Source: Raillietiella orientalis | Lineage: Eukaryota | Direction: 5' to 3' | Assembly (NCBI GenBank): GCA_036172245.1 | Contig: JAYWIR010000001.1 | Span: 3,658,001-3,722,000 of the forward strand | DNA: 64,000 bases | In this document: positions 2,314-63,519 of the stretch, piece after piece | Position numbering within the stretch: the first letter of the stretch is position 1 | How the letters are laid out: every line of letters starts with the position of its first letter | Notes under the pieces: model-generated | Database searches by the model: none | Seen by the model: only the letters and a program-made list of their open reading frames with translations | Told to the model about the DNA's origin: nothing | Translations under genes and position numbers: made by a program

Positions 2314-3672
2314 GAAGTCGTGGTCAGGGTTCTCATGAAAAAGCTCTTTCATCTAAGGAGGAGAGGGCTTTTATTTTTTGAAGTGTGTCTCAAAAGAAGT
2401 GCCCATGCGACTGCTGGAGACCGGAATGATGGAATCAACAGATTGTCGTGGTGTTTCCGATGTTCGATGGCAGCACCAATCTCACGGATCAACGCCGAGA
2501 ATGCGGGGTGAGCCTGGGTTCGGAGTTCTCTTCGCGGGATAGCGCTGGCTGGCCTGCGGGCTTCGGGTGCGGCAATGGTGGAATCGGAAAACCGGATCCT
2601 AACGCCCTTGTTGTTTGGCCGGAAGTGGAAGTTGACCCTCCGGGGTCCTTCCATGAATCAAGGAGCCGGTTCCCATCGGAGTTCTCCTTTGTCTGTGCAA
2701 TGCTCTAGCCAGTCCGTATCGTGTAACATAAAGCTGGTTGATACTCCCCTCAGGTGGTCACCCCTCCAGAGTATAAGAAACGCTCTGCTTCCTTCGGGGA
2801 GCGACCCTACAGAGAAATTTGAAAGTGTCTCTTTCGGGATTCTCTCCAGAAGGGGAAACAAGGAGCGTTTCCCTTACGGGTTCCCTCCGGAAAAGAAATT
2901 TCAGGAGTGGCCCCCTGGAAGGTCCCTCCTGGTAAAATAGGGAAGAGAGGTTCTCTTCAGGGTGCTCTTCAAAGACAACTAGGGCGGAGGTTCCCTTCGG
3001 GGTTCTCTTGCCAAGCATAAGAGGGACGGATTCCTTCCTCCGAGGCTCTTCCTGGATTCGTAGGATGGAACCCTTACTCGAAGGGTTCCACGCACCCTTA
3101 AGTGGCATGGGAGAATGTTAAAGAGCTTCGTGACCTTTCCTTCCCAAGAAGGAGAACGGTTCTCTAGGACTTAGCGAATCCGGCCCCCCCCCCCAAAAGT
3201 CCCAAATTGCAGCGTGTCTTTGGCGCCTCGGCAGAACCAGTCCGTAGGGCCGAGAAAAGCCACTTTATAAACTCTGAAAGAAGTGCTGGAGCGAGCTTTA
3301 TTTATTTCCATTCATCTCTAAGGCTTACAGCTGAGAGGAGCAAGCACGCAGTAGGCATTATTCGGAGAATCAGGTCCAGGCATGCGGAGAACATCAGCTG
3401 GGGTGCAATTAGCTGGGATTGGCTCCCGGAATTCCATGGTCTTCCTTGTTGTTTCTGGAACTACTTCCTCCAAATTTCTGGCAAATGAAAGCTTAAAGCC
3501 ATTGGAACTAAAAAGACACTTGGGAACGTGAGTGCTCCGGGAGGATCAGTAAGCCTCCGGAACATTTTGAAAGGATCTGAAGTCGTGGTCAGGGTTCCCA
3601 TGAAGAAGCTCATTCATCCAAGGATGAGAGGGCTTCTATTTTTTTTAAGTGTTTCAAAAGGAGTGCCCATGC
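2314..3672 (+). repeat. Direct repeat pair of ~95 bp (2314-2408 and 3579-3672)
   Basis: GAAGTCGTGGTCAGGGTT.CATGAA.AAGCTC.TTCATC.AAGGA.GAGAGGGCTT.TATTTTTT...GTGCCCATGC occurs twice. Confidence 0.85.
2480..3140 (+). repeat. Long structured SINE-like repeat, copy A (head missing)
   Basis: Shares ordered blocks with the other copies: GGCTGGCCTG, GCGGCAATGG..GGAAAACCGGAT, GAATCAAGGAGCCGGTTCC, CTCCAGAG, TTCCTGGATTC, TGTTAAAGAGCTT. Confidence 0.7.
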
Positions 3673-4199
3673 TGAAAGATTGATTCCCTTAGCACGTACC
3701 GAGGCAGTGTTCTCAGCTATCAGTGGTAAAGTAGCAGATTACAGGATTATTCGTGCGGCTCTTCTGAGCCTACCTCGAATCAGGAGAACTACGGTAGGGA
3801 AGGGAACAGGCCGCGGATGCCAAACACGCAACGCGACCCTGCCTGCTGCGCTATAATCAACCACAATCGACCGGTAGTGCAGCATTTCCACCTACCCGCG
3901 AAATGACAGGACAGTTCGATAGAATACCTGGAAAGGGCAAAACATGGAAAGTCTTCATCAGCAGTCAACTCGTCCCGAGAACCCGGTTGTCGCTCTGTCT
4001 GGAGCGGGACAACGGCATCCAAAGAAGTTGTGGTAGCGAAGGAAAGTGTTGTGGGGTTTGCCCCTTCGTTTGCCTCCCAATGGATTGCGGACCTCGATCC
4101 GACAGCATGTATCTGTGGGATCACGTTTCCTAAAAGCCGTGAAGCATCCCGCAGTCCGAGATGAGGAGATTTTGCGGGATTCGAACCCGCAAAATGAAA

Positions 4200-4830
4200 A
4201 TCCTTCTTTTCTGTCTTCGAAGTTCTTCGACACGGTTCCACGCCACCCGAGGGTGGGTTATCCTCCAGCTTAGGGGGTATCCCGGGAGGGCTCCTCCCTA
4301 TGAATCCAGGAAGGATTCGGAGTCCGTTCCTCTCACGCCTGGGGAGGGATCCCCGGAAATAGAGATCACCTCCACCCTGGTTGTCTTCGAAAGGTAATCC
4401 AAGGGAATCCTCTTTTCTTATTCTCTCCGGAGGACCCCGGGGGGTTTGTTCCATTTTTTCTCCTCTGAAGGGAACCCGGAAAGGATCCGATCCTGGAGTT
4501 TCTTCTCCGGAGGGATCCCTCGCAAGGGATCCGCTCCTGTTTTTACTCCTCTGAAGAGAACCCAGAAGGGACGCTTCTGAAATTCAGAAGGACTCAGCTT
4601 CCCTGAAGGGATCGGCTCTCTTCTCTGCACTCTCTGGAGAAGTAGTGGAGACACAACGACTCCATCAGTACGACGCAGAGGGTTCCCCGGAATGGGGGGT
4701 GCGCTCCTTCACAACCGGAGAAGAGCTCCCACTCGGTGCTCCTGAAAGGACCCAGGAGCTCGACTCCCATTTGTTGCGGCCCTCATCGGGGCATCCGATT
4801 TTAACCGCTACCAATGCCGCACCCGGATGA
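4200..4830 (-). repeat. Long structured SINE-like repeat, copy B (inverted relative to copy A)
   Basis: Reverse-strand match to the same blocks, from GGTGCGGCATTGG to TTCCTGGATTCATAGGG..GGTGGCGTGGAACCGTGTCGAAGAACTT. Confidence 0.7.
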
Positions 4831-5149
4831 ATGTAGGCCAATCAGCGTCATCTTGTGGGGTGAACTCTGAACCCACGACGCACTGCGTCAATTCCTTCGA
4901 AGTATTCGATCCCACGACGCATGGTGCCACGCGCGGAGGCCACCGTAACCACACGGCCTCTGGCGCGGGCGGGACACTGCTTCAGGAGAGAGAAGCCAGG
5001 CGTATCCTCCTGAAAAATCCGGTGATCACTGCACTATTAAACGGAAGCAACAGTCTGCAACACTTGTAAAAGGGCGCTGTAAAAGCTGTCTGTTCGGAGT
5101 GACATCTCAGATTCACAATTCTTAAATGTGTCATTAAAAAAAGCATTCA

Positions 5150-11650: not shown

Positions 11651-11699
11651 AGAAAAAAAAAAAAAAAGGATGCTTTCGAGCTGTGGAGGTGCACCCACT

Positions 11700-32449: not shown

Positions 32450-34600
32450 CGATGGATCAGATCCTGGTACTGACAGCGGCACTAACATCCTGGTACCGAA
32501 ACACCGAAGCGATTGACAAAAATTCGGGCGCGACAAGGCGCGCGTCCGGACAAGTCAAGGTAAAATGGGCGTTACAAGAAGGGATGCTGAGGGTCGCAAT
32601 CCGTGAGCTCAACAGTCGGCTAGCAGACGAAAAAGAAAATCGTCCCCGTTCTGCTCGCAGTTCAACGAAAGTGGCATCTCTTGCCATAGAAAGTGGCCAG
32701 ATCAAAGGAAGACCGCGTTCTGGGCAGCATCGCGCTTCGTGGCACTTCCCATCCGAAGAAGGGCACCTCCGATTCGTAGGTCGTGGATTCATTCATTCGG
32801 CATAATTCGACCTTCTTCCCGGACGGGCGTCGCTCATCGGAGTCTCTCGACCAAATCCCAATTAGATAGATCAACAACTAAGCGATGATTACGGACAGGT
32901 ACGACGAGCCGGTGACCCAAATCAAGAATACCACTACCAAATACCAAGAGTTAGTAGCCGGGAACGGATCGCTCAAAGTGGAAGCCGGATCCAATGGTCC
33001 AGTGCGAAGGGGAGGAGGTCACACTGGACAACTACGGATGTTCATCTATAGCTTTGGAAGAGATGAGGCAGAAAGTGGAGAGCGGATGTTAAGGACTGGC
33101 TCTGCACTTGGCCTCTAAACGAGTGTCCGTTGCTGCAAGAGCAATGGTTGTCTTCCTTTGAGATCTCAGGATTCAAGAAATGCCAAAGTGTCGAGAGAAG
33201 CGAAAATTCTCAAGAGGCAAGTGGAGCACATCACAAGAGAAATGACTCGCTCGCACATATAGTGCTCTTGGAGTTGGCCTGCTCTTTATGGATCTTGAAA
33301 GTGCTTTTAGAACGATGCCTTAAGAACTCCTAGGGTTCTGAAAGAAAGCGGGTCAGACAAACGGATCCATCATCCGGAACCACTAGATAGATGAACGCTT
33401 TCAGCACAATCCAATTAGAATCCCGCTCTTCAAAGATGGCACAAAGATGGAGAGGATAGACCGGAGATGCTGAGTGATCTCCGCTTCGTGTTGAATATAT
33501 CCACGGAGATCTGTGTGTTTCAGGATGCACTGCAGAGTTTGCAATGAGGCCGAGATGCTCATAAATCCAGCCCTGAGGGCTTCCTTGTACTTGTACTTTG
33601 AGGAGGTGCAGCTGGAAGGAGTCAAGCGACAATCACAACCAGCATCGGCAACAAGACCGTCCCTCCCCTTCAGCTCCACGACGCGTACAAACATTTCGGA
33701 AAGCCTTCCAGACTTGAAACAGCCATAGTAGAGCATCAGCTGTTGGCACAAAATAATCAGTACACTGGAATCTGTTCTTTCCTTGTGACAAAAAAGATGG
33801 GCTTTCTACATACCAAGCTCGTCCACCAGCAGGGACTCGGGCTGTTTAAGAAAAACGGAATGGGTTCTTCTAAGCACCAGCACCCGCCAGCAGAGCAAAA
33901 GAAGCGTGTGCTTGCCGAGGAGAAAGGCAAAAGAGTGTCTATACTCAAAAAAAAGCGGGGGATGTGATGACCTTCCTAACCTCCCGAAATGAAGCAGAAA
34001 AGTTTGGTTCTAGAGCTGCTTCAAGCTGCTGACCACGCAGGACGCAACAGTTCAAGAGCCAACCCAGGATACCCTGTGGGTAATACGAAAACGAATCCTA
34101 AAGAGCGAGACCCTGAGATCGACTCCCAATCCCGGCCTCTCATCGATGCATCCGGTTTTTCAGCTGCAGGTGCCGCACTCAAATATGGATCAACCAGCGT
34201 CATCTTGCGGGAGAAACTCGAACCCGCTATGCTCCCATTTCTGCGGCGTCGACTCTTTGCAAGTACTCGAACCGCGACGCTTGGTGCCGCTCTCAGAGAC
34301 CGCAAGTACATGGCCTTCGGCGCGGGCTTCAACATACGGAGATCTGGGAAGATCTCTGTCAGGCGCCGTCGTAGATGAACACATTGGACCTGGAAGCGAT
34401 ATAAGGGGTTTGCGGGAGGGGTGCCAGACCTCTGGTCCACAGCGGGCACTCAGGACAACTGACAGCGGCGAGCTAAGATTCACCGTTGACGGACTCACTT
34501 TTATGAGAACGTGAGGATAGATTGAGAACGCTCGAGTACAAGGAACCATGGCGTTCCTTCTTGGAAAGTCATCCAGACCAGGGTGCGGCTATGTTCTGGA
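32450..34600 (+). mobile_element. Probable degenerate non-LTR retrotransposon of a restriction-like-endonuclease clade (R2/NeSL/R4-like)
   Basis: RT-like pieces (Y..PVTQI..LKVEAG; ERML..GL), then NPLCSHFCG (zinc-finger-like) and GVPDL...TVDG..YEN...LEYK (PD..D RLE-like), in the expected order. Heavily decayed. Confidence 0.4.
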
Positions 34601-35849: not shown

Positions 35850-36963
35850 ACATGGAGAGAGCTCCGGAAAAGATTTCAATTCATGATAAGTCAGGCATCA
35901 TGAACGAAAACGGAAGAAGCCATGGAGTTGTTTGGGCGACTGCTCTTCCGTTCGCTTTGGGGAGAAGCGAAGTCGGAAGCTACCAGCATGCGGCCTGCGA
36001 TCTTTACAGAAAGGAAGGAACGGAGGCAAGCGGGTACTGTGAAGTCCGGATTAATTCAAGCACGACAGATGCTCGGGGCAATAGAGCTGCGTGTGGTACG
36101 GAACAGTGCGGGTTCGAATACCCGTAAAGAATCGACATCAGCTGGCTGACGCATGTAGCCCCGCCGCCCTCCATAAAGGAATTCTTCGCTGGGAGGAACT
36201 TCTGAACATTCCCTGACAAAACGCACAGAGTCTTTCAGTGTTTGTGGACAACTCTATGCTTCCCTTGAAGTGGAAGGACTCACCATTGCAATTGTTGCAC
36301 TGGGCGATCCATGCAACGCGGGAGTCCACCACTGGGCAAGAGGGAGTGCAGTCCCAGAACTGTGCCAGGTGTGGGGAACAGGGAACCTTCCCACACCTGT
36401 TGTTGGATTGTGTTTTCCCTCCTGTGAAAATCTGGAAACGCTTCGCTGCTGCCTTCCCGCTCCCGATGGACAGCGGCAGAGAGGTCTTGCGGTGCCTCTT
36501 CGTGCGCGACTCGATGGTCGTCTGCAGCTTCCCACCTTGCAGCTCCGTGCTGCCTTCGTGGGAAGGTGGTGGCGAGGAGCCGCGCCGAAAGGACTAATCG
36601 TACGGTGAGCCCATCGTCTGCTCGTTCATGAGGAAGGCGATGAGATGGCCACATTTCTGCCAAGAAAAAGAGGGAATTGTCAATACCTTACAGGGAATGC
36701 TGAGGATGCCAGGAAGAAATCTGGGGCCCTTTTTCTTCCACCCAAACATTTTTTTTGTGGGTGTTTTTTTGTTTTTGTTGTTTTCTTCCCATTCCTCCTC
36801 TGCGTATCTCATCGGGAACGCTGCTCACGAGAAGCAGCGTCCCCGAGGAATTTCCCTTCGTAGTGGTGAAGTCACTACGAAGGCACTTTTTATATCTGAT
36901 ATGACTTTTTTTTGGTGCATATTTTTTTTTTACAATAAACGCCCCGTCATGACTGGGTGAAAG
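35850..36963 (+). mobile_element. 5'-truncated Tx1/L1-like LINE (same family): ORF2 C-terminus plus 3' UTR
   Basis: GILRWEELLNIP...LLHWAIH...QNCARCGEQGTFPHLLLDC..VKIWKRF (CX2C..H..C, zf-RVT-like); ends in AATAAACGCCCCGTCATGACTGGGTGAAAG. The 5' boundary is uncertain. Confidence 0.7.
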
Positions 36964-37790
36964 AAAGGATCGGCTCCAGAGAAACGGGTGTGTCGTGGCT
37001 TTCGAGTCCCCCCCGCAGGATGACTCTGGTTGGCCTGTAGGCTTTGTTTGCGTCACTGGTTGACATCCGGTCACACCGGAGCGTTTATTTATAAAATAAA
37101 CATACATGTCTGTGGCAGGACGTTTGATCCTACTGCGTTACTTATGGATACGAAAAGGAACCTGCCAGGAGTGCGGCACTGGTAAAATACGGAAACCGGA
37201 TTCCCCCCTTGACTGACCGGGATTAGAAGTCGACGCTTCGAGGTCCTTCTAGGAATCAAGGAGTCGGTTCCATTCTGGATTCTCCTCCGGTTGTGAAAAT
37301 GGAGTCATCTTCATCCTCGGAAGCGGACCCTCCATCTCGTACCATGGAGTAGATGTGTTACCACCTCTCCAGAGAGTGTAAACAAGCGTACCGCTCCCTT
37401 CTGGGAGCGCCCTTTGAAGAAATTTCGAAAGCTCTCCTTCAGGGACCTCTTCAGAGGAGGAAACCAGAAACGATTTCCTTGCGGAGAGTTTCTCCGGAGA
37501 AGAAATTCTTAATAGCGGATCCTTTCCGGGTTCCCTTCGGAGAAGAAAATAAGGAGCGGCCTCCACCGGGAGGATCCATCCGGAGGGAATAAGGAAGATA
37601 CAGCAAGGGTGGCGGTCTCCCTTCGAGGTTCCCTCCTGAGCGTAAATGGAACGGACTTTTTCCTCCAAAGCCCTTCCTGGATTCATATGGTGGTCCCTAC
37701 GGGTTGCACCCTATGAATTGAAGAGCGACACGCACCCTCGGGCGGCGTGGGCAGTGTCAGAGTTTTGTGAGCCCTCCGTAAGCAAGCGAA
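36962..37790 (+). repeat. Long structured SINE-like repeat, copy C (interrupted at ~37058-37168)
   Basis: AAGGATCGG..GGGTG..GTGGCTTTCGAG..GATGACTCTGGTTGGCCTGTAGG, then GCGGCACTGG..GGAAACCGGAT...TTCCTGGATTCATATGGTGGTCC..AATTGAAGA. Collinear with copy E. Confidence 0.75.
37058..37168 (-). mobile_element. Short LINE 3'-UTR fragment inserted in reverse orientation into a SINE-like copy
   Basis: Reverse strand GTAACGCAGTAGG...CCACAGACATGTATGTTTATTTT..AATAAACGCTCCGGTGTGACCGGAT matches 12546-12720. The SINE-like sequence resumes on both sides. Confidence 0.65.
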
Positions 37791-38899
37791 TGGTTCTTCA
37801 GTACTTAGGGGACCAAGAAAAAACAAAAGAATGCTAAATATAAATACTGAGCAGCCCCATCATTTACATTTCCTCATCAGCATTTAAACAAGAGGATCCG
37901 AAGGCCGATGGAGTCTTCGGCGTGTCTTCGCAGACTCCGGGAAGCGATGTTCGTGCGCGGTGAGACTCTAGCAAAGCGTTCCCATAAGATACCTTGCAGT
38001 CCGTGACAAAAATGCGTCACATGGTCCGGAAAGGCGGCTGTCATTCTTTTACTCTGCAGCAACTAGAGCTCTCTTGGATCGAACAATGTCGGAGAGCAGA
38101 CTTGTGACGCCAGGTGCACGACATGACCTGGATGTTCCTTCGGTGTTTCGACTCCCCGTCGCTGTGTGCAGGGCCGTTTCTTTCGAATAGGCAAAAGGGG
38201 ATGAGAAGTCGGACGAGATTTCGAAGGTTGGGAATCCTATGAGGATGATGGAGAGGAAGGAACGTCCTGTTTCCGTTGTCACAGTCTCTACCCTAATCGA
38301 CTATGGTCACGTCCTCCAATTCTCTCAGCCGGAGGATCGGGTCGCTTGGGCTGGGCGTCATCAGCGAAGCCGGATACCGCATCTCCGATATCCGCATCGT
38401 GCTCCCCTTCCTCCTCCCGCTGCAGCAGCTTGTAAAGGACATCCCATTCAGAGATATTTGGGAGGGGGACATCGTTGTCGAACTCTGGAGCCCGCAAGCG
38501 GAGGCCCTTGCCCTCGGGACCCTGCGGGTTCTTCCAGACCGGATCTGCAGCGCCTGCGCAGAGATTCCTTCGGGGCTCCTAGGGAAGACCCACGGGATAC
38601 GTGCCGGAAACTCCAAGCGCCCCCGGAGCGAGTTTTGCTACTACCTTCCTTCGGGGCTCGAGCCCCGTCCTGAGTTCCCGAAGAACTGGAATCTCTCGGA
38701 GTTTCCCTAGCGGCGAGTTCGGATTGCTTTCCTCTTAGACCCCTTTCCGGTCGTCGTTCAGGAAAGGGTCTAATGGGGTTAAAGGGGTCCGCCATAAGGA
38801 CTCCCCCATCCCCCCATCCCACCCAGAGGCGACTCTCGACTCGGGTTCCGCCATCACCATCTTGAGATCCCTCGCCTTGCACCGGAGCAGCGACCGCTT

Positions 38900-48770: not shown

Positions 48771-50874
48771 GTCATTTCTCAAATCTGTACGGATCTTCCA
48801 GATGCAAATCCACGCGCTAGTCAAATGCCCTGAATGAGGCTACTACGGACGCTCGTAGCGTGCACGGTCCTCTTGCTGATTGATCAATGATTTCGGAATT
48901 GAACCAAAGCAGATAATAAGCGGTGCTCGCAAAAAAACGAGATGAGCTGCAATGAAGAAATTGAGGTCTTCAGTTTGCACCTTCGATGATCTGCAATCTC
49001 AAGTCACGCAAAGTGTCATGGAGGACCCATTTGTAATCGTGCGTGAGATTCTTCCTGCAAATTCAGAAGCGCCAGAGTGCGGATGTGCTTAAACCCTTCT
49101 GGTGAAAGACTCCACAGCACAACGGTAGGCCAGCCATGACGAATTGATACTTTCCAAACGGAAGATGATGATGGACGGAGGTTCTTTCGACTTGCTCGAG
49201 TCCTCACGAAGACTCTTCAGATCCCAATTCACCACTGATTTTTCAGCAGCGAGCTGCTTCAGGTCCACAGGAGGAAAAAATTTTGTTCTACCCTTGCTTT
49301 GCAGACAGGAGCCTCTTGGAAGACTTTTTTTGGACTCATTGTCATTACCAAAGAATGGTCCTTGTAATTCGATGCAGACGACAGCGCTTGCTGGTTTACT
49401 TTCTGCTCCAAAAAGCGATTTCTTGGCAGCTGTTGGCGAAAGGCGAGCAAGAAACTACATGGGCTGAAGGGGGGCAGCTACAAGGTCATTTAAAATCACG
49501 AATCTCTCCAGAGAGCAGAGGTCGCCGCAGAAGCTTTTCGGCTTGGCTTGCTGATTCTCGTCTGCTGATTCTTCCGCGACATTCGAATCCAGTGCTTCTC
49601 CACATCTTGTTCACACTCCCTCGTCCGTTCCTGCATAAGAACATTCATTTCCATCAACATCTGAGCAGCTGGCGGTGCAGCCTAAGGGCGGTTTCAGGAC
49701 TCAGGTTCTTGCTTGTCGATAGGAATGTTCCAAGGCACAGAGTTTTTTGACGGTGGCAATTTTCCAGCTCACCTCAGTCACACACTCAAGCCTCCAGTAT
49801 ACCCAGAAGTGTCGTTTCGATTTCCATTCGCAGCACGGATGTCTTCTCATTCATCTCCAACGGCGTATTCCGTCAGCAAGCCCAAACTAAGCTGATTCCT
49901 CACTGCGGTAGTTCCGGAGGTGGCAGCTGCCAGGTTTTGGTCATTGCCGATCCTCCTGCGGTGTAGTTTTTCTTCATCTCGTTTCCTTCCAGTTTTCGCT
50001 TCGATTCGTCAATCGGAAGAATGGGAAATTCGACGTGCCACGGTGTTGGTCCATCCGAATGCATTTTGAACGACCATCACCCTCTGAGTAATCAAAGAAA
50101 AGTGGAGGATGGTGCGCCCGTGCACCTCTTGAGAAGAAAAAATTCGTAGTTTCCTAGCGCGGAGAGGTTGCCGATGATGCCATGTGCACCCAGATGCAAC
50201 TGAGCGAACATTCTGCATCCACCGAGGCAAAGCGAGCTGGAGCCGGGGAGTGTCTTAGAGAGGTTTTCAGATTTTTTCAATTAGCCACGCCGGTCTGAGG
50301 TCAGCGATCGAAAGTTCACCAGTTGAGAACCTTGTTTATCCCATTACCAGGATTTCGAAACGCAAAAGGGCTTCCGGAAGATTCCAAGGAAAATGCTGAG
50401 CGTTGGCATCCGAATCTAGATGTCTGCCTTCCGGATGCTGGCGGATATAACGGTTGACGCCATCCAGCTTGATCCATCAAGGCGACCAGCACTAAGAGGT
50501 AGAAGAGCAGTCCAGAAGGCAGAGGCGGCTATACACCGTCCCTCTCAGCAAAACGGCGGAAGTTTCCAACGGAGATGAACGGGATGAGTTCGGTTCCGTT
50601 CTCACCTGGCTTCTGATGCTGTACATGGCATGCGGATGCACTCCATAATTTCGGTCGAATCAGAGGAGTGAGAAACAATGGACCGCTATCATTTTTGAAG
50701 TGGGGATTCAGCTGGGAACATGGATTCGCCCATCGGACTGGAGTAAGCAAAGCTGTCGTTCTTGACGCGTACTGTCAGGCAAGCAAAAAACCACCCCGCA
50801 GGCGAATACAAGCGAACGAGTTAGCTCCATCGAACCAAGGCGCCATCCCTTCGAAAATCTCATGCTCAACCTAC

Positions 50875-51162
50875 CCTTGATCAGGATTTGGAATTCCACC
50901 CGGCTTGTCCCGACAGAATTCGTCGCTTCGCACGCGTAGAATCCACTGTGCTGCCTGCTGATCTTGAAAAAGTTCAGTACCGGTCCGTTTGTCGTCAAGC
51001 CGGCTGGAATGGCTTCAGCAATAAATTGATTCAAGGGAATTTTATTCCTGCTCCACGAAAACGCCAACTGATCTGGGTTTGCTTTCACATTCAGTTCTAG
51101 AACAGCTCGTGTATTTTCCATTAACTTAACAATAGATGGAGGGTTAATAAATAGAGGCCTGA
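50875..51162 (-). CDS. Next coding exon (288 nt, phase 1/1) of the nephrin/Sns/Hibris-like gene; Ig domain lacking the first canonical Cys
   Basis: Acceptor tgtttcag, donor G|GTAGGT. Splices in frame to the 54719-55018 exon (..HVL-F-RPLF..). Translation RPLFINPPSIVKLMENTRAVLELNVKANPDQLAFSWSRN...GPVLNFFKISRQHSGFYACEATNSVGTSRVEFQILIK has G-x-Y-x-C-x-A-x-N-x2-G and ANP without an upstream Cys, as in the equivalent Sns/nephrin domain. Confidence 0.9.
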
Positions 51163-54100
51163 CTGAAACATAAATGAGATTTGATTGGCAACGAAACTCT
51201 TCTCGTCCAAGGTTCACGAAAAACACATGCCCATGCGCTGACCGACAGTTTCCGTAAGAAGGGAGCGCAGCGCTTTCCACCCCCTCCCGCTCGTTCCTGC
51301 GGGAAACGGCGCGAACGGGTTCCGGAATTCGTACGGGCGGAAGAGAAAGAAGGGAGAGAAGAGGAAGATAATTTATCTGAAACAATGCTTCGAGCTTTTC
51401 CCTGGAATCCACGCACTCGCAGAGAGCTCATCTCACGTGCAAACATGCGGAAGGACAGGTCACGACACACGCGTACTATGCACAACCGGCTGCCGGAGGC
51501 TACACTCTACATCTGGCGCTGCGCGCGACGCACTCCGAATCCCGGTCGCTGTGCCACCCGGAAGGAATCAGGTTCTCGAGAGGAGGGTGCATTCCAGACG
51601 GCACCTGCAGCAACCAGTCTTTGACTCCGAATACGGAAGCCACTGACCGATTACCGACGATTTCGCCTGTGATTCTTCCGAATGCCGCCACAGACGAGCA
51701 AATCGACTTTTTTGAGGAGGAAGGGATGAAGGGAATTTTTGATTCCGTCGTTCGAAGCCCGGAACTCGATAGCTCTTAATTTGGTGGAAGAGGCGAAATG
51801 AACATCTAAGGAAGAACGTAAGTGTGGGAAGAGCAGTGGGAGAGAAGTTGACACTTTGGACATCGAGTTGGGGAAAATGCAGCACTTATCCATACTTTTG
51901 AGGGATCTTAGAAGCAGCTCCGCACATACGTAAGGTAGGCTCAGATGTCAAGATGTGCTCCTTCCCATTTATCTCGAATGCCCATGCAGGACTTCGACAC
52001 CCTCAACAGCTTCGAGCGGCGGTGAACACGGCCATCATTCTTGTCAACTCAATTGTGGCTTTTCGGATACTCACGCTGGAGAGCAAACAAGATTGATACA
52101 TGGGAGCAAGACTGCAGCCGCAGTGGATTCGCGGCAGCTGCCTTTCGAGAGGTTTGCAGTACCAGGCTTCGAGGTGGAAATCCGGAAACCTGGTACTGCA
52201 GGCAGCAGCATGATGATCACTCTGCTGCTGCCGAAGATTTTTGAGGCTGCAACGCATGCCATCTCAAGTCTGCGGATTAGAACCTCCACATTGCATCCCA
52301 GCAGAGCATCTCTCAAGTCAGAATCCTTTTCATCCCCGAGGAAAACTTCGATGGACTCCTGAGGAATGGCAAAGGGTTGTTGGTCGGAATGCCTGATTCA
52401 CTTGCTTTCGCTCAAGCTGATGTGAGAGTGGGTGGACAGCAAGAGCCAATTCTGTTATCGTCGGCTTCTTTTGCTTCTGGAAGCAATTACATCAAGCTTC
52501 GAATGTGTTCGTCTAAAGACATAAAAGCAGTCTCTCTTATATCTCTTCCCTGATGACCGAAAGGATCGATAGCTGAGTCCTTTCCTATTGTCTCTCGCTC
52601 TCGATTGAGCCATCGACACGAGACTTCGATCAGCTGTATTCAAATATTACAATGTTTCAAAGGATGAACTTTCCAGCCATCAGGTAGTTTGTCTCGACAC
52701 ACTGACCCCTACGACAACATGGACTCTGATTGATTTGCCACGGCAGAGAAAAGGCGGAAGGGATCCGATGCCTATCCTTCTACAAAATTCTTTGATGTTT
52801 TAGTGCCTTTTACAATAAACTGTGCTACGTCTGTGGTACTGACTTGTGCTTCTGATTCCCTTGTTACGTGTTCCCGCGTTTTACTTGGTTTTTGGTTCCC
52901 TTTTGGTTTCTAAGCAGAAGGAACTCGGTCTTTGGCCTTTCAGAAAAACACCTTCCACTGCCATCTTATTCCGTATAGCGAATGCTTATCATCCCTCCGG
53001 CAAGAGAGGAAACTGAAAAAGATCTTGCTTGTCGATAAGGACACTTTTTACTTTGGACATGAAGAAGTCTCTGTTACCGGTAACCTTGGTTAACAAAGCG
53101 AGCGAGTGATTTATGGAAGCTCTTTCATTCTGTCTCTAGTGAATGTCATCTTCGAGGTCTCACGTGGGGAAATGGTTTTCGCCTCTTGGGATGTTCGGCT
53201 GTCAGAACTAATCTTGACAAATCGAGAGATCACGGAGTGCAGAATCTTTTGAGGTGAAAAATCACGTTAGAGCTGAAAATGTTTCAAGTTTCTTTCAGAC
53301 CAGTGAATTGAATTTCAATTCCGGGAAATTTTCACGAGCTGGATGTGTCGACAGAGAAAACGACTACGGATCATTCTTTGCTAAAAAGAGGAACTGATGA
53401 AAGTTATGGAGAGCAAGAAGAAGAAAGAGGTGCTCTCTCGATCTCAGAAGTGTAGATTTTCATCCTTAATTATTGTTTTTCCTTTTATTCCATTCTTTCT
53501 CTTCGCCTTTAGTTTCATTTCATCACCTTTTTGGTGCACAGTTGGACATCCGCGGGTGGTGCTCGCTACAACGCCCTATCTCCTCTTGCATTTACAAAGC
53601 GGCCGGCAGATTTCGACCGATGAAGCACTCAGTGCTTATAGCAAGGAGGAAAGCGAATGCACTTCGACCAGATGGAGTGAAGATTGGAGCGTGGCGCGCA
53701 GTGGAGTTGTTGACGGCGGCGAAGGACACAGAACGTTTCCTTACGGATTTGGCTCTCTAGTGGGTTCGTATTTGTTCAAATCGTCGACGACGGACGCCTC
53801 TTCAGAGGCTCAATACAAGGATGGTTCTAGTAGCTCCACGTTTTCATGGTTTTTTGAGTAATAAGCCTTTTCATCTCTCAGCACGTTCAAGGATAACGAA
53901 ACTCTGCATCTTTTGCCATCGGAGTAAACAGAAAGATTAAGAGCTTTCCCATCTAAATTACCAATATAAATCAGATTAGATATCTGAGCATCTTTTTCCG
54001 AATTCTTTTATTCTATCCTCAAACGGTGTAACTTTGGCTATGGGTGAAGCCGTCAAGATGAAACTAAGGTGGCATCGAAACGAAGAACCTTTCTCTAGAA

Positions 54101-54718
54101 TCAAGAAGGGGGTTGCATTTCCTATTGGACCGCTTTTCGGCATGTGGAGGGTGTAGAGTTTCGTGTAGAATCGAGTAGCGCTACACGAGCCCGGTGCGTA
54201 CTTCAGGCAAGCTCTTACATACTGAGTTCGTTTCAGATGGTGGTTTTGGTTTTGGTCGCTTCAGGATCCGTTCTTCTGAAAACCCTTGCAAGTAACCAGA
54301 AAGAGAATGCTTTAGACAAGAAGGGCTCCAGGAACTCTAAAGACTTTCAGTGGAGTCTTTCCCTTCAGGTGGACTCCCAAGTCCTGAACTGTTCTTGTGC
54401 TGCGTCGAAAAAGGGATCAGTTAATGTGCGTCTTGTATTCTTCGGAGGCTGGATTTTGAAAAGATCATTCTATCAAAGGAACAGAAAGCAAAAGGGAAAG
54501 TGCCATTCTCAACTTTGCAAAGCTCTTCGTTCGCGAAGGAAACCCGAGGAATCCAAGGTTGGCAAAGCTGAAACAAGGAGATCGTCCCAGATTCAGCGCA
54601 TTCGGGAAATTGAAAGCATCTTTGATGAAATCGATTCGGTCCCGCGGCACTCAGATGCAACTGACAACCCCTGGATGCATTACGAGGTGCCCGCATAAAA
54701 CACAGAGAATTGACTTAC
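51163..54718 (-). other. GT-AG intron (~3.56 kb) between the two nephrin-like exons
   Basis: Canonical GTAAGT...TTTCAG ends; the phases of the flanking exons are compatible. Confidence 0.8.
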
Positions 54719-55018
54719 AGAGTACATGAAGATGTACATTGGTTTCCTTGCTGATATGAAGGACATCGTTGACGGCAAAGCAGAACAGAGGGGTGCGGTG
54801 GTCGGCGTGAGTCACGTAAATTGTCAGATTGCTGCAGGAAACCATTCCTCCATGCTCTCCTTCAAACCGTTCCTCGTTTCCAGCCAAATGGAACGTCCCT
54901 TTTCTCCATTCAATTCTCGCCGAAGGGTTGCTGGAGCCACTCTGGCATTTGAAAGTGGCGAAAGTACCGTTCATTAATTGCAGACCTCTCCTTTCTATCT
55001 TCACAGTTTTGGGAGGAA
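54719..55018 (-). CDS. Internal coding exon (300 nt, phase 1/1) of a nephrin/Sns/Hibris-like Ig-superfamily gene; one C2-set Ig domain
   Basis: Acceptor ttttttcag and donor GTAAGT bracket an open frame PPKTVKIERRGLQLMNGTFATFKCQSGSSNPSARIEWRKG...GEHGGMVSCSNLTIYVTHADHRTPLFCFAVNDVLHISKETNVHLHVL. The C-x-S-x-SSNP-x-A-x3-W-x-K, GG and C-x3-N motifs match the nephrin/Sns Ig domain pattern as I recall it. Confidence 0.9.
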
Positions 55019-58000
55019 CTGAAAAAACAGTGCAACACAAAGTAAGGCCAGGACTGGAAAAAGGTCGCTCTCCTGTCCAGGTGCAAAGGAAAAACACGTT
55101 TCTTCGCGAGGTCACGGCAGCCACATTTTGGGTAGAAATAAAACAAAAACGCCCCGCGCGATCAGTGAAAATCTGACCTAAGTCACATGAACCTGAGGTC
55201 AGGGGACCGGGAGGACAATAGCCGGCTGTCTTGTGTATTTGATTCTGCATTTTATGCCGTTTCGTTCGATGCTAAAGGCGCAGTCCTCGTATCTCGTTTC
55301 CAAGGCGAGATATGATTACTTATACAAAATGAAGCTCGAAACGAGCCTCATACGAGAAGCTCATTTTGCAGGAAAGCTAAAATATTTCTCGAAGAAACAG
55401 CAGCACCCTTGCATTCGGGAATTCTCTCTGGTAAAGCTGCTTGCTTATGCACGGATAGATCGTCATGGATCGTCTCTTTTTGTCTTCAAGGTCAGTTCCT
55501 CAGTGGGATAATGTGCTTTGTAAGATTAGAAAATGTACCGGAAAACGGAAAGGTCATCGAGTCCAATTAAGAATACCATCTGCTGAACTCGCTTCTGCTT
55601 TGGAGATGTGTTTTCCGTCCCGGAAAACTTCGTGAACCCCTGCAAGAAAGGTCGAACAACGTCTAAGACACAAACAGGAAGACGAAAAATTTCAAGCTGT
55701 TTCATACTTCACAGGAGTCCACCTGGCATTAAAAAAAGGGGTCCACTACGTGCTTGGCCATCAACTTTTGTTACTGAAAATGAGTGTCATGGCAAGTTCA
55801 CACAAAACAGCCCCTTAGATCCAGAGAACTGCACAGGATTGCGTGCATTCCCCCTATTTGTCCTCATTTCCGATGGTCCGCAAACAAATTGGTTTTAGGG
55901 AGTGGATAAACAAGTAGTCAGATTCCGTCCACAGCTGCAAAGCTGTTTTTGATTGATGCTGTCCCATAAGAGCTGGGGTGATCTAGAGCTGTGGAAAGCC
56001 CAGTAAATCGATGAAGCTGGTACAAGTTCTTCATCTGTGCCTGTACCTCATTGATTTTTTGGATGGGCTATCATCACAATTTTGCCCTCCCATCATACTT
56101 ATTCAATTCTGTCAGATGTCGGTTCCTCAGAAGTAATACTAAATGTCCCTATTCAAATTCTTCTATTAAGAATTGACTTTTGTTATTAGCATAGAGTCTT
56201 CTATGTCTCTCCATCCAGAGAGATAAATCTTGTGGAAATTATATATAAATTAGAATTACCAATCATAGAAATGTCAGTGGCCTCTCTGAGTCGGATGAAG
56301 GTTACGTGAAAGGATCTCATCTTTAAAAGGATTATTGAATACATTAGCATTGCTATCACTGGCAGGTTTGCTGAAGGCTTCATTTGCTTCTCGCCTTTTC
56401 TTCTCTCCTCCATACACCAGAAAGTTTTTTAGGCTGAAACTGTAACATCCAGAAGATTCCATCTTTTTCTAAAGACTTCCTTCATGATCTTCTTCCTTCT
56501 TTTCTATCCGATATTTGTAGCAAACCACACTAAAATTTTTCCTGCAACAAGGGCAGCAATGTCTTGATTTCATCTGTTTCTTCATTGGCCCAGTTAAAGG
56601 TCAATTATTAGTATTTAGACTTTGCTCGGAAACTATTTTTTCCGTTTTCGAAACGGAATCGGTGAACTAGATGGAAAGCTCGCTTGTTTCTTCCCATGGA
56701 TCGAATCTCACAAGACACCGTGGATCTATAAACGAAATGGTCCAGTTGCATTTCAAAGAGTCGTCATTTTCAAGGTGCAAACATGAAATCCATCTTCAAA
56801 GAATTCTGCATGAGATTATTTGGAGCAATACATCGTTTCAATCGGAGTTCTAGAATCTTTTGTTGCTTTCAGCCCTCAGCATCACTCAGTCATTGATTGT
56901 ACGAAATCCAGTGCAGCACGTCTTGTCTTCAAGGGAGTGTTTGAAGAAGCTCCAGACACCACACATCCGATTCAGTTATAGGGCTGCAAGCAGGGTGAGG
57001 GCGGCTTCACAATCACTGTTCATGACTGTCTTCAGTTCCGAGTAGTAAAAGACAGATCTAATTTCAGGCCCCGACATGCATGGTCTCCATTTGTTCGAAA
57101 GTGACAGAATGATGGAGGAAGGAAGCCAGGTCATCATTCCTAAGAATCATAGACTTTCAGGAATTCTTCCTTCGAAGGAAGTTGAGAAGCCTCCTAGCTG
57201 CCTTCCTGCCTAGAGGAGAGGCAGAGATTTTTGCAATGAGCTTCTAGCCTCGCTTCTCATCAACCAAGGCAAATGATGATGACCGTGAACATTTCCATCG
57301 TTCATGCAGCGCCGAGCTGTGATTTGTTGCAAGAAGTGGTCCATTTGCCACAAGGAGCTCAATTGAACTACACGACCGCCTCTTACTGCAGCTGTCGATG
57401 AGGTTGCTTGCTATGAAATATAGTTTTGTAAGGATCGCTGCCAATCTGGTTGCCGTTTGCTGCTGGAAGCGGAGCTCAGATTTTCCCAGAAGTTGCCGGA
57501 TAGCAGGTCGATTCGGGGGAAGATTCACTATGACTTTACCTGGGTCGCCAGGCACACACCATCATCGGGAGTGTTCTGAATTGACGCGAGTCCTTTCCTT
57601 CCGAAAGTGCATAATGAACCGCTGTTCCTTAAGGGCTCCATCCTGCCTATACGATTAGTTAGCAGTGGATCGTCTTGTTTCCGAAGGGCTACATCTCTAG
57701 ATGCCAAGTTCGATAAACTCTGATGCAGGAAGGAAACTGTGCTCAGTCAGCAGACATCGGACTAAGAGCAGTTTCCTAAGGACAAAGCCACAAGTAGTGG
57801 CTTTATCTTTAGGGACCACAACCAGTCCTGAGCGCACAGACCATACCTTTAAGGAGACGCGCGCCTAAGCATTCCCGCCAGCACAGCTCTCGAAGTTGGT
57901 TTAGCCGGAGGACACGCTCATCCGCACAGGCGTTTAGATTCAACTATCTAAGAGATCGCAGAAACAAGCACAGCAGTCATCCTTCTCGGAAAAAATCAAA

Positions 58001-58789: not shown

Positions 58790-59170
58790 AAAACGCTTAT
58801 CCTCTCTGTATCGCATTCTGGAGAGGCAACATCTCGAGGGGGATATCAGCCCGTTCCATGGTACGTGATAGGGGTGCTTCCCCTTGAGAGGGAGACAGAC
58901 TCCGTTTTTACAACAAGAGAGGAACATCGAAGGAATCCTTGATTCCTGGAATGTCCCCGGAGCGTCAACTTGCAATCCCGACCAGTCAAAGGAGGCATCC
59001 GGTTTCCGCCAGTGCCGCTCCCGAAGTCAACATAGTCCAACCAGCGTCATCCTCCGAGAAGGGACTCGAAACTCACGATGCCCCCTCCACTTCTCGACAT
59101 CAATCCTTCGCCAGGTAGGATTCGAACCCGCTACTCTTGGTGCAACGCTCTAAGGCCGTGGCCGTGGCCG
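58790..59170 (-). repeat. Long structured SINE-like repeat, copy D (5' part with tRNA-like head)
   Basis: Reverse strand TTAGAGCGTTGCACCAAGAGTAGCGGGTTCGAATCCTACCTGG (Pol III B-box) followed by the family body (GGATGACGCTGGTTGG, GCGGCACTGGCGGAAACCGGAT, CAGGAATCAAGGA, GTACCATGGA). Confidence 0.75.
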
Positions 59171-59229
59171 CCAAATGCATCTAGAAGACATTCGATTCCC
59201 TTGGATTCACCCTCCGAGCGACTCCGCGA

Positions 59230-59900: not shown

Positions 59901-60959
59901 AATTACCGCTCGACGGTTTCCATTTTTCCCCCGAGGAGCAAGACCTAATGGAGTTCTCTTGGAGCACCTGCTGCGGGTTCAGTAGTTCAGAAAATGGAGT
60001 TCAGATGCCATTTTCTGGCTCAGTGGGTTTTTCTTGCGCCTGACCACTGAAGTTTCATTTTACCTCTGGAAGCCCACGTGAGCGATAAGGTGGAGGAGAA
60101 GGGAAAGAAAGCACAAGTGCCCGAGGAGCCATGGCCCAAGCGGCCGAGTCCCTTTGCCACCATTACTATCATCAGTGTGTGTGTGGGGTGGGGTGGAACG
60201 GGGTGGGGTGGAACTATCTCACTCTCTGGCATGGCGAGTAGCTCGGATAGGAAACGCTCGGCATCTACGATTCTCGCGCGGCGATGCTGATGTGCACCAA
60301 GTGGTTAAGAAGCCACAGTCTCCTCCCCCCCAGAGCATACAGGCACACAGGCATCTCCGTCTACAAGACATATGGCCTTTTCTCAAGGCTACACTCCATT
60401 CGGGGGAGGCGAGGGTTCAATCAAGCTATTGGGTGGACGGATGAAGTGACAGGACAAGGAATTCTACAAGGAACAGGTTCCTGGAAAGAGGAACAAGTGA
60501 GTAAGCAAAACAGCAGCATCAAAAAAAAGCAACAAAAAGCGGTTGCACAAGATTCGTAACGGTGGCTGCAGTTCTCGTTCAACCCTTTTCAACTCAACCT
60601 TCAGACGTTGGGGCAAAATGTCCGACCGAATGATATCCAGGAACAAGGGAACGCGGCTCCAGAAAGACAACTTACAGAATTCCCCGTCTTTCCGCAGCCC
60701 GAAGGCGGCACCCTTTGCGCTTTATACAGGGGTGGTGCGGTATCTGCAATCTTCTCTCTGGTCGAAGGAATGAACTGCTTTTGGAGATCACATCTCTACA
60801 CGGAATGCCTCCTGTCCCCCTCCCCCCCAACGCGCTGCAGTATCTCCTCCTCCCGTCTAGCAGACACAGAGCTCAAAACCTCGCTGAAGAGAGCCCACCA
60901 CAGAGCATGGAAGCAAGGCACCTCTATTCCTCTTGGTTCGCTGATTACTCAAAGATCGT

Positions 60960-61650
60960 TCGCCTGAGGGCTCATAAAGCTCTTTAACACTGTTCCACAC
61001 CACCAGGGAGTACGTGTAAATCTTCAATTTGGAGGGGGGACCGCGGAAGGGGACCACCCTATGAATCCAGGAAGGCTCTGGAAGCAGGAGTCCGTCCCTC
61101 TTACGCCTGGGAGGAGAACATCGTATGGAATCCTTGCCCTGGTGGTCTCCGAAGAGAACCCCGAAGGGAACCTCTTCCTTATTCTCCTCCAGAAAGACTT
61201 CCTGGTTCGTGAAGCCTCTCCCCTTTTTTTCTTCGGAGGGAACCCGCAAGCGAACCGCTCCTTGGTTTCTCCTCCGAAGAGTACCACGAAGGGACGCTCT
61301 TCGATTTCTGTGCTCTCGATTCCCCAAAGGAAACAGAGCGCTTCTTCACTCTGGAGAGACGACCTTCAAAAGGGGCATCAACCAGCCCCATTTAACAGCT
61401 CCACTTTCACCACCGGAGGGGAACCCCGGAAGGAACCAGCGCTCTTGTATTTCTGAAAGAACCCAGGAGGGTGGACTTCCGATCCTGACCAGTCAACGGG
61501 AAAAGGAGTCATCCGGTTTCCGGATTTCACCAGTGCCCCATCGGTAACCTACAGGCCAGCCACAGTCATCTTTTCGAAACCCACGAAGCACCCATTTTTC
61601 GGCGTCGATCCTTCCTCAGGTGGGATTCGAACCCGCAACTCTTAATGCCA
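60960..61650 (-). repeat. Long structured SINE-like repeat, copy E (near full length)
   Basis: Reverse strand AAGAGTTGCGGGTTCGAATCCCACCTGAGGAAGGATCGAC head, then the complete body to GTGTTAAAGAGCTTTATGAGCCCTC. Confidence 0.75.
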
Positions 61651-63519
61651 CACAGTTTTATTCCTCTTGTAGACCGAGGAGATTTGAAGGTGATCTCCTT
61701 GCGAAGAGGTGTGGACCTGCATCGAGCGGAAGAAACAAGGGGTCCGACGCGGAAGAGTTAACTAGAACGTTCCTGTCAACTGGGAAAAAGGGATAGGCAG
61801 TCGCGGGAGTCGAGGAGTTCTGCGAGCCTCGAAGGTCGGGGTCGTTCTGCCTGCTGTCGACACATCTGTGGTTCTACGGCAGAACTGCTCTTCGTTAGAG
61901 GAGAGCAGTTCTATCTCTTCTCGGCCTTCTGGCTGAGATCAAAGTGTAGTGCAGAATTGGCATGAGAGTTTTCGTTCTGGAACAGCCTTGACCAAACTCC
62001 AATCGATTAGGCTCCGACGCATTCCAAGAACGAGTCACAGGGCATCCGCCCACCTCCTTTCCCTACTCCTGCTCTTTCATTTATCCTCAAAAGCCATCTC
62101 TCTGGAAACAAAGCCATCCAACACCAGATTGTTCCTTGTCCTTTTATTTACCAAGGAACCCTTTCTATTACTTCCCGGATTTCCTCTGGATGTCCGAAGA
62201 GGAATGTGCAGACCGCCAGCTAGAGTGCTGCTCGTAGTCACCCGTGCGCCAATTGGGTATGAAAGGGGTAAAAAAAAAAGAAAAGGAATCGGATCTCAGA
62301 GTACACTCTCTATAGAACAGCCCACCTCATCGGAGCGCTTCGCCCCCAATGAAGTGAAGTGACTGGGGCAAACCGCCAACAGCTGATTGCTTCCGGAGGA
62401 CGCTGACGACAGCGTCTGGAGCTCATTGAGAGGACACGGACACCTCGTTAGAGACGTCGGAAGCACCGTTGGCACGCATGTTTCTTCCGGTAAGAGAATC
62501 CGTTGAGATCACCGCAAGGCTCACACCACCCCGGAGCTCGAGCACGACCGAGGCAGCAAACGTTGGTGACGGCAACCGCAGCATCCTCTGCGGGGTCGAC
62601 CGCAACCGAGGAGCTCCGAAAGATCAAGATGACCACCCTGAAGTCCGCAGCGAACCAGGATTCACTCTCTTCCTCAGAGACGAGCATTGAAAAGATCATG
62701 AAGGCTGACATCCAACCAGGAGCCCCTTCCCAGAAGAGGACATCCCGGAAGCAAGATGCAGCATCGCCACCGACGACGCTCCCCGTTCGCCAGGCACCCC
62801 ACCATCAACTTTTCTCCCCATAACGTCTTCCAGACCGGAATTCAGTTCGTTCTAGTCTATCGTTCCCGGCCTATCACGGCTCCGGGGTCTTCCGACGAAC
62901 TCCAGGTACCCAACCAGCTCTGGTCCCAACTTTTCTTCCTACGTGAGAGAGCAGTTCTCTCTCCAGCAAGGCGCGGGTTGGTTGATTCTCCTCGGTAGCG
63001 GAAATTTTGGGAGGTTGCTCCGGGTGACGGAGGAGAGGAATCCAGAAGCAAAAGGCGAAAGCAATCCGAGGGAACGACGGCTGTCGCGCAACTAGCCGAT
63101 TGAGTTCCTTCGAGAGAAAAGGAACGGGAGCTCTTGCTCTGGAGCTCTCTTGAAACCTGTCTGGGACCGGATGGAGGAGCACAGTTGCCGAGAAGCAGCG
63201 GGGACATGAGAGCGGAGTGTCTTAGCCATCCCAGGCTCGGCCGCCGATGAGGGTCATCTCCGAGGGAGACCTGAGCGGTCACGGGATTTTCAGCAGCATC
63301 CCTACGGATCCATTTCGTCCTTTCCATTGTAGGCGACTAATGGACCTTTCCAGAATCTGCGAGCGAGTAGGTAGGAGATACGAGAGCAGCGCCTACGGGG
63401 ACGAGGTTTGGGAGTCGGAATCCGGGTCTCACGAGCTTGAGCGAGGCTATTATGAGAAGGGAGAGAGACAGGATGAGTTATCGAAATCCAGTTAACCCCC
63501 TGGTCAGCGGAAGAAGCAG

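What the first reader, a model, noticed from the sequence alone, without database searches (positions are those of the whole stretch)
60960..61650. Long tRNA-headed repeat whose body looks like a multi-hairpin structured RNA (cUUCGg-rich); at least 5 copies
Seen: five collinear copies (2480-3140 +, 4200-4830 -, 36962-37790 +, 58790-59170 -, 60960-61650 -). Two keep a B-box head (AAGAGTWGCGGGTTCGAATCCYACCTG). The ~0.7-0.8 kb non-coding body has repeated sense-strand hairpins: CTC-TTCG-GAG (61147-61156, 61272-61281), CCC-TTCG-GGG (61159-61168; 2993-3002), GCTTCC-TTCG-GGGAGC (2787-2802), CGCTCCC-TTCT-GGGAGCG (37392-37409), GGATCCCT-TGCG-AGGGATCC (4513-4532) and a conserved ATCCGG-AAA-CCGGAT. A long-range pairing (37261-37274 with 37645-37658) may close the domain. 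Known: cUUCGg is an exceptionally stable RNA tetraloop, and most SINEs are much shorter. Inference: the TTCA/TTTG loops in other copies are CpG-decay products of TTCG, so the ancestor was a highly folded Pol III RNA. It could be an undescribed long SINE, a retrozyme-like element or a captured structured ncRNA. I could not identify a ribozyme core by eye.
Basis: partly seen in the sequence, partly recalled or inferred. Interest (0 to 1): 0.7.

Follow-up and report, generated by a model that had tools for sequence, protein, structure and literature searches.

The report
Long hairpin-array SINE targeted by LINEs
These repeats are dead copies of an unusually long, tRNA-headed jumping element whose ancestor carried a row of about a dozen mutually matched hairpins, and two other jumping genes repeatedly landed at two fixed spots inside it; it is an unusual variant of known mobile elements, not a ribozyme or a new cellular RNA.

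Summary
The repeat is real: six copies in the window, roughly 10,000 in this animal genome. It is an extinct ~0.9-kb SINE: tRNA-Arg-related head (65% identity), a body that is a degenerate ~40-nt tandem array, an A-tract, a terminal hairpin, a T-run and an oligo-A tail. Copies are 83.5% identical to their consensus on a star tree. The CpG-decay idea fails (C>T 0.104 at CpG, 0.114 elsewhere), copies show no covariation (102 vs 104 expected), and Rfam and a hammerhead-motif scan find nothing. One part of the structure idea survives: in the consensus, each array unit's two arms pair better with each other than with other units' arms (P about 0.001 on the nine clearest units), so hairpins were maintained in the source element, by selection or by template-switch repair. 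Two Tx1-like LINE subfamilies hit fixed sites in this SINE: one antisense near position 171 (22 of 40 LINE ends; one case in the window), one sense near 855 (6 of 18 tail-bearing copies). The scan noted this SINE and LINE targeting of it before, on other DNA of the same genome; the arm co-adaptation was not in the notes I saw.

The parts
60923..61653 (-). SINE copy 5 (the flagged copy): consensus positions ~36-788, B box at 61617-61643, hairpin-array body, ends at the start of the A-tract
   Evidence: 83% identity to the consensus
58813..59172 (-). SINE copy 4: head with B box (59112-59138) and first part of the body, 3' part missing
36137..36959 (+). 5'-truncated Tx1-like LINE fragment inserted in sense at SINE position ~75-85, with a probable ~10-nt target duplication
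   Evidence: tblastn to the intact relative and 3'-end profile; duplication read from the sequence
36960..37832 (+). rest of SINE copy 3, interrupted at site A
37061..37171 (-). 110-nt 3' end of Tx1-like subfamily A, antisense, at the fixed site after SINE position 171, with a ~13-nt target duplication
34110..34329 (-). SINE copy 6: head-only fragment
4170..4970 (-). SINE copy 2: full head, body with one extra ~40-nt unit
2484..3198 (+). SINE copy 1: headless, body to the A-tract

Best explanation
An extinct, long tRNA-derived SINE. A source gene was transcribed by RNA polymerase III from the tRNA-Arg-related head through to the T-run after a terminal hairpin (inferred from anatomy), the RNA was oligo-adenylated and copied back into the genome by a LINE reverse transcriptase, most likely of the L1/Tx1 type (inferred), priming on the tail or internally. 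Its body arose by tandem amplification of a ~40-nt palindromic unit (shown); while the units diverged in the source lineage their arms stayed matched (shown statistically), giving a chain of local hairpins. After insertion the copies decayed neutrally (shown). Two Tx1-like LINE subfamilies later used two fixed sites in the copies as landing pads (shown).
For: Head: 51 of 78 aligned columns identical to this genome's tRNA-Arg(CCT), best of 40 tRNA loci, score 61 vs shuffled maximum 47; sharp common 5' end. Only T4 run is at the 3' end. 12 of 18 hairpin-ended copies are at least half A in the next 30 nt, and 17 of 18 show an A-rich run by eye. 28 elements in 600 kb of evenly picked DNA, i.e. ~9,800 (6,500-14,200) per genome. 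57 copies 83.5 +/- 1.9% identical to the consensus, best 88%, star tree. TRF periods 12, 40 and 79 over positions 224-596. No compensatory excess in copies: 12 vs 9.8 and 102 vs 104 expected. Arm matching: own minus cross -3.3 kcal/mol on 12 units, 0 of 20,000 permutations; -2.3 on the nine TRF-supported units with the core held constant, P 0.001; 0 of 250 neutral duplication simulations in each of two settings. LINE site A: 22 of 40; 13 of 16 with target duplication, inserts 110-1576 nt. Site B: 6 of 18, one full junction pair.
Against: Target-site duplications around the SINE itself are not shown: 5 of 54 over the 95% null, P 0.056. No partner LINE with a shared 3' tail among 31 LINE loci. 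Pol III transcription was not tested. 907 nt exceeds the <700-nt description and the 662-nt maximum in SINEBase 2013. One global-fold pair set gave a slight compensatory excess (125 vs 104, P 0.02). Against random genomic CCC-N4-GGG sites the arm signal is weaker (P 0.033), and shared ancestry of units reduces the number of independent events. The clusters of 3' ends near 790 and 860 are only partly explained.
Confidence: 0.82

Rival explanations
1. The matched hairpins need no selection: template switching during DNA synthesis or reverse transcription repaired or created the palindromes in the source lineage.
For: Template switching can create and maintain stems (PMC8794818, abstract and start of introduction seen). 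The arm signal is the same on both strands and with DNA parameters; span-limited folding z is -2.4 sense, -2.7 antisense.
Against: Several units keep the same unpaired TT/TT internal loop that repair would remove; G-U pairs number 5 on the sense strand and 0 on the antisense; chromosomal copies show no such repair after insertion.
Confidence: 0.45
2. The repeats are retropseudogenes of an unknown structured cellular Pol III RNA (7SK- or telomerase-RNA-like) rather than of a selfish SINE.
For: Own terminator hairpin and T-run; frequent 3' truncation; co-adapted hairpins.
Against: No Rfam match over the element in the window or in 12 loci; no TTAGG template motif on the sense strand; the genome search returned no non-self match above 83% (none above 79% for matches over 200 nt) among the 40 candidates scored of 4,216; tRNA-derived head and ~10,000 copies fit SINEBase's SINE side of the distinction.
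Confidence: 0.07
3. A retrozyme-like or ribozyme-bearing circular RNA element.
For: Length and hairpin density only.
Against: No hammerhead core on the sense strand and no complete core on either strand; no ribozyme family in Rfam scans; no terminal direct repeat within copies; unique head and A tail.
Confidence: 0.03
4. The SINE-plus-LINE composites were amplified as one unit, so the fixed sites are not LINE target choice.
For: All site-A cases share one 3' junction; L106 has no SINE body behind the insert.
Against: 5' junctions differ in every case (110-1576 nt) with variable duplications; heads with and without the LINE are equally diverged (82.8 vs 82.9%) and share a diagnostic variant at similar rates (6 of 40 vs 5 of 57); inserts are younger (87.4% to their own consensus) than hosts.
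Confidence: 0.07

Closest known systems
tRNA-derived SINEs with head, body of unknown origin and tail; quasi-oligomeric CHRS family (SINEBase, PMC3531059; Definitions section read whole, other passages seen)
   Same: tRNA-related head over 60 nt at >60% identity, <1 kb, thousands of dispersed copies, A tail, internal tandem motif as in CHRS
   Different: 907 nt (about 780 to the first A-tract) against a 75-662 nt range; the tandem unit is a ~40-nt hairpin with co-adapted arms; built-in terminal hairpin before the T-run; no partner LINE tail found
Tx1-Mar LINEs in Mariner-N4_AMi, Tx1-9_AMi in Harbinger, Xenopus Tx1 in Tx1D (Kojima 2015, PMC4494074; passages seen)
   Same: APE-endonuclease LINEs that prefer fixed places in another dispersed repeat; two hot spots in one host, one antisense near the 5' end and one sense near the 3' end, used by different families
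   Different: The host here is a SINE, not a DNA transposon or LTR element; the host animal is probably an arthropod; sites are precise to the nucleotide
Retrozymes and hammerhead-bearing repeats (recalled, no paper read)
   Same: Non-coding, hairpin-rich, sub-kilobase mobile elements
   Different: No hammerhead core, no terminal repeats, has a tRNA head and an A tail

Membership tests
tRNA-derived SINE (SINEBase) | Interspersed repeat shorter than 1 kb | tested here: met
   907-nt consensus, dispersed over many contigs; longer than the looser <700-nt description
tRNA-derived SINE (SINEBase) | At least 100 copies | tested here: met
   172 exact matches to a 20-nt head motif; ~9,800 estimated
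tRNA-derived SINE (SINEBase) | At least 60% identity to a tRNA over at least 60 nt | tested here: met
   51 of 78 columns to tRNA-Arg(CCT); 40 of 62 listed tRNA loci compared
tRNA-derived SINE (SINEBase) | Simple-repeat 3' tail | tested here: met
   A-rich tail after the T-run: 12 of 18 at >=50% A in 30 nt
tRNA-derived SINE (SINEBase) | Target-site duplications from LINE-mediated insertion | tested here: inconclusive
   5 of 54 above the 95% null, P 0.056; low power at this age
tRNA-derived SINE (SINEBase) | Partner LINE identified (shared 3' tail) | tested here: inconclusive
   No homology to 30 RT loci or L212 except one separate SINE copy in L053; only the top-scoring RT families were sampled
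tRNA-derived SINE (SINEBase) | Pol III transcription from the internal promoter | not testable with these tools
   Anatomy fits (single terminal T-run); no transcript data
Retrozyme / ribozyme element | Self-cleaving ribozyme core | tested here: not met
   Motif scan of the consensus; Rfam on natural copies; the consensus itself was not scanned with Rfam
Retrozyme / ribozyme element | Long terminal direct repeats (feature recalled) | tested here: not met
   No within-copy terminal repeat in self-BLAST
Known structured ncRNA (Rfam) | Covariance-model match | tested here: not met
   No match over the element to E 5 in the window and E 2 in 12 loci; one U2 fragment beside the copy in L098
Structured RNA under selection in its copies | Covariation across copies | tested here: not met
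   12 vs 9.8 and 102 vs 104 expected; one global set 125 vs 104
Target-specific Tx1-clade LINE | APE endonuclease + RT + C-terminal zinc finger | tested here: met
   Intact relative L212 (57% identical to an insert) has Exo_endo_phos and RVT_1 over cut-off, zf-RVT below cut-off at E 0.0013
Target-specific Tx1-clade LINE | More than 20% of flanks in one sequence type (Kojima's criterion) | tested here: met
   22 of 40 3' flanks at site A; for subfamily B only the reverse count was made, 6 of 18 SINE tails
Target-specific Tx1-clade LINE | RT phylogeny within Tx1 | not tested
   Best homologues are fish EN-RT-zf proteins at 31-34%; their Tx1 label is recalled, no tree with reference families was built

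The most novel reading that the evidence does not exclude
The source RNA was a selected, multivalent array of about twelve UUCG-type hairpins with a conserved internal loop (a natural repeated protein-binding scaffold that raised its retrotransposition or stability), and this SINE became a dedicated safe harbour for two Tx1 lineages with separate sequence specificities, a SINE-targeting strategy I did not find in print.
Probability: 0.3. Interest if true: 0.62.

Novelty: new variant of a known kind. Interest (0 to 1): 0.4.

Why it matters
It would be among the longest tRNA-SINEs relative to the SINEBase catalogue, with paralogous hairpin units that allow a clean test of selection versus template-switch repair in the birth of RNA stems. 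The two LINE hot spots extend Tx1 target choice from DNA transposons, LTR elements, RNA genes and microsatellites to a SINE, and intact relatives of the LINE are in the same genome, so endonuclease specificity can be assayed. It is a dead family with no sign of a host function.

Tried and rejected
CpG decay: rejected (C>T 0.104 vs 0.114, G>A 0.113 vs 0.104, CpG vs other; genome CpG o/e 0.92); loop G>A was 35 of 242 against a background of 0.106, loop C>T 21 of 243 against 0.112. Reverse orientation (variable end as a 5' truncation) was considered after a U2 fragment beside L098 and dropped because hairpin-ended copies carry A tails in the tRNA-sense direction. Coding origin: six frames of window copies gave no Pfam match over cut-off; no nucleotide or protein homology of the consensus to the LINEs tested. 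Helitron or MITE: no matching termini seen in the consensus (terminus rules recalled). Subfamily split: principal components tracked only unit deletions. Metagenome pattern scan: 0 matches. Sequencing runs: no RNA holder listed; the one DNA run, small share, was laid and covered mainly the repeat copies, not used as evidence. Internal priming at the site-B motif as the cause of 3' ends near 860: no matching duplications seen by eye, left open. Host placement: an Ig-domain exon found nothing; CCT-gamma gave mostly arthropod hits at 66-69%. Look-up of earlier findings by sequence returned nothing. Literature: Tx1 targeting and SINEs; tailless copies; hairpin-array or long SINEs; template switching; none listed a SINE-targeting Tx1 family or a hairpin-array SINE, but only open-access papers are searched, Repbase and Dfam were not available, and Kojima 2015's supplements, which I did not open, may list further targets. 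PMC4640811 passages gave only general background.

Full report
Observation. Self-BLAST links the five named copies at 67-77% identity and shows a sixth fragment at 34110-34329. The quoted hairpins and both B-box heads are at the stated coordinates; the ATCCGG-AAA-CCGGAT palindrome is exact in one copy only. The window lies in a 210-Mb, 491-contig genome of an animal, probably an arthropod with no close relative in the protein collection (Ig-domain exons; CCT-gamma 66-69% to mostly arthropod proteins).

Copy number and age. A search with the flagged copy gave 4,216 first-look candidates, of which 40 were scored; non-self matches were 67-83% identical, none above 79% over 200 nt or more. Sixty evenly picked 10-kb stretches from the 25 largest contigs held 41 profile hits covering 2.5% of the DNA, grouped into 28 elements, i.e. 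about 9,800 copies (95% range 6,500-14,200), with a bias to large contigs. Of 153 grouped elements 59 were near full length without a long insert; after dropping one duplicate and one misjoined row, 57 gave a 907-nt consensus, to which they are 83.5 +/- 1.9% identical, best 88%, on a star-like tree. This is one old, extinct burst.

Anatomy. The 5' end is sharp. The first 76 nt align to this genome's tRNA-Arg(CCT) at 51 of 78 columns, the best of 40 tRNA loci tested out of 62 listed, with a score of 61 against a shuffled maximum of 47. Positions 224-596 are a degenerate tandem array with periods 12, 40 and 79; hairpin centres recur every 36-45 nt to position 698, with one double interval. Then follow an A-tract, a purine-rich spacer, a terminal hairpin and the only run of four T. 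Of 18 genome matches to the hairpin's 3' arm, 12 are at least half A over the next 30 nt and 17 show an A-rich run by eye. 3' ends of 54 copies cluster near 790, 860 and 907. Target duplications around the SINE are suggestive only: 5 of 54 over the 95% null, P 0.056. No partner LINE tail was found among 31 LINE loci. By SINEBase's three formal criteria (PMC3531059, Definitions section read) it is a SINE; it is longer than that catalogue's 75-662 nt range (passage).

The structure claim. CpG decay is absent: C>T is 0.104 at CpG and 0.114 elsewhere. Rfam finds nothing over the element in the window or in 12 loci, and there is no hammerhead core. CCC-TTCG-GGG is over-represented (5 vs 0.1), but that follows from tandem duplication. 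Global folding of the consensus is mildly better than shuffles (z -2.2, 25 shuffles); 200-nt windows over 1-650 are not (z +0.2 to +1.2) while the 3' windows are (-2.5, -3.6); with pair span limited to 40 nt the body scores -2.4 sense and -2.7 antisense; the six window copies score -4.4 to +0.4. Across copies, compensatory changes match neutral expectation in the UUCG stems (12 vs 9.8) and local helices (102 vs 104), with one slight excess for a global pair set (125 vs 104, P 0.02). So inserted copies are not under structural selection.

Selection on a source element would show between its paralogous units, so I folded each unit's left arm with its own and with every other right arm. On 12 units own arms are 3.3 kcal/mol more stable, 0 of 20,000 permutations; the effect holds when left and right arms come from consensuses of disjoint halves of the copies and when the central 10 nt are held constant. 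Three of the 12 units lie outside the TRF array and were picked for looking palindromic; on the nine TRF-supported units with the core fixed the difference is 2.3 kcal/mol, P 0.001, not reached in 250 neutral duplication simulations at either of two divergences (simulated pairwise difference 0.34 and 0.39 against 0.41 observed), and P 0.033 against random genomic CCC-N4-GGG sites. Basal stems alternate between GAAG/CTTC and GGAG/CTCC, and several units keep a TT/TT internal loop; G-U pairs are 5 sense to 0 antisense. Hairpins were therefore maintained in the source lineage. Whether by selection on the RNA or by template-switch repair (PMC8794818, abstract seen) is open; I put it near even, and the number of independent compensatory events is small.

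LINE targeting. Many copies carry an antisense insert after position 171. It is the 3' part of a LINE whose intact relative L212 has two ORFs, endonuclease, RT and a zinc finger, with fish EN-RT proteins as best homologues (the Tx1 label for these is recalled). A motif in the LINE's 3' end has 122 genome matches. Of the first 44 listed I left out 4 already held (all four at the SINE site) and fetched 40: 22 sit at this one site, although the SINE covers 2.5% of the DNA; 7 of the other 18 carry a variant 3' end of other subfamilies. Of 16 inserts with both junctions, 13 show a target duplication by alignment (about 7-19 nt), lengths run from 110 to 1,576 nt, and two further inserts had no SINE body in reach; five of the 16 came from a body-biased search. 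In the evenly picked sample 2 of 22 copies spanning the site are filled. A second subfamily sits in sense just before the terminal hairpin in 6 of 18 tail-bearing copies; of these six, one shows SINE, duplication, LINE and tail in order, one a probable 5'-inverted insert, and four run beyond the 860 nt fetched; L137 is another complete case and a few copies ending near 860 are directly followed by a LINE piece. This mirrors the two hot spots of Tx1-Mar in Mariner-N4_AMi (PMC4494074, passages). Searches listed no SINE-targeting Tx1 family. In the window, copy 3 holds a site-A insert (37061-37171) and a sense LINE fragment in its head (36137-36959).

Mechanism. Shown: dispersed family, tRNA-related head, tandem origin of the loops, A tail, neutral decay, matched arms in the consensus, independent LINE insertions at fixed sites. 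Inferred: Pol III transcription, mobilisation by an L1/Tx1-type LINE, endonuclease sequence preference as the cause of the hot spots, any function of the hairpin chain.

Earlier notes of this scan on the same genome describe the SINE and the LINE targeting (unchecked AI notes, read after I had reached both readings). Their view that selection on the fold could not be shown agrees with my copy-level tests; the unit-level test adds a signal they do not mention.

Verdict: new variant of known kinds; interest 0.4.

Noticed in passing
window 61913-61950 (+): 5' fragment of U2 snRNA (about 38 nt, Rfam E 0.005) 260 nt from the head of the flagged copy; a truncated U2 pseudogene or the junction of a U2-associated element.
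   Followed up: no
window 11456-11633 (-) and 11644-12718 (+): Decayed U1-like sequence (E 0.0009) lying back to back with the 5' junction of a truncated Tx1-like LINE fragment.
   Followed up: partly
L098:5980-6045: A SINE copy ending near position 860 is followed by a short fold-back and an antisense U2 5' fragment.
   Followed up: partly
L212 (G000:C103:129300-135800): Intact two-ORF Tx1-like LINE inserted antisense into the RT region of another LINE copy with an 11-nt target duplication; many intact LINEs lie in arrays about 5.5 kb apart on small contigs and near contig ends.
   Followed up: partly
L194, L198, L204: Three LINE 3' ends of another subfamily share one downstream sequence on different places, suggesting a third fixed target in some other repeat.
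   Followed up: no
L028, L034: Two LINE 3' ends run into the SINE body near position 555 in sense: a possible minor third site.
   Followed up: no
window 7864-8765 and 39851-40201, 12558-12659: Long imperfect inverted repeats (72-79% arm identity), MITE-like or fold-back.
   Followed up: no
window 9988-10955 (-) and 38991-39228 (+): Further decayed LINE fragments, one of the second large RT family.
   Followed up: no
window 50708-55271 (-): Exons with immunoglobulin I-set and C2-set domains, nephrin/sidestep-like by resemblance (name recalled).
   Followed up: partly
window 2314-2408 and 3579-3672 (+): 95-nt direct repeat, 87% identical, on either side of SINE copy 1 at a distance.
   Followed up: no
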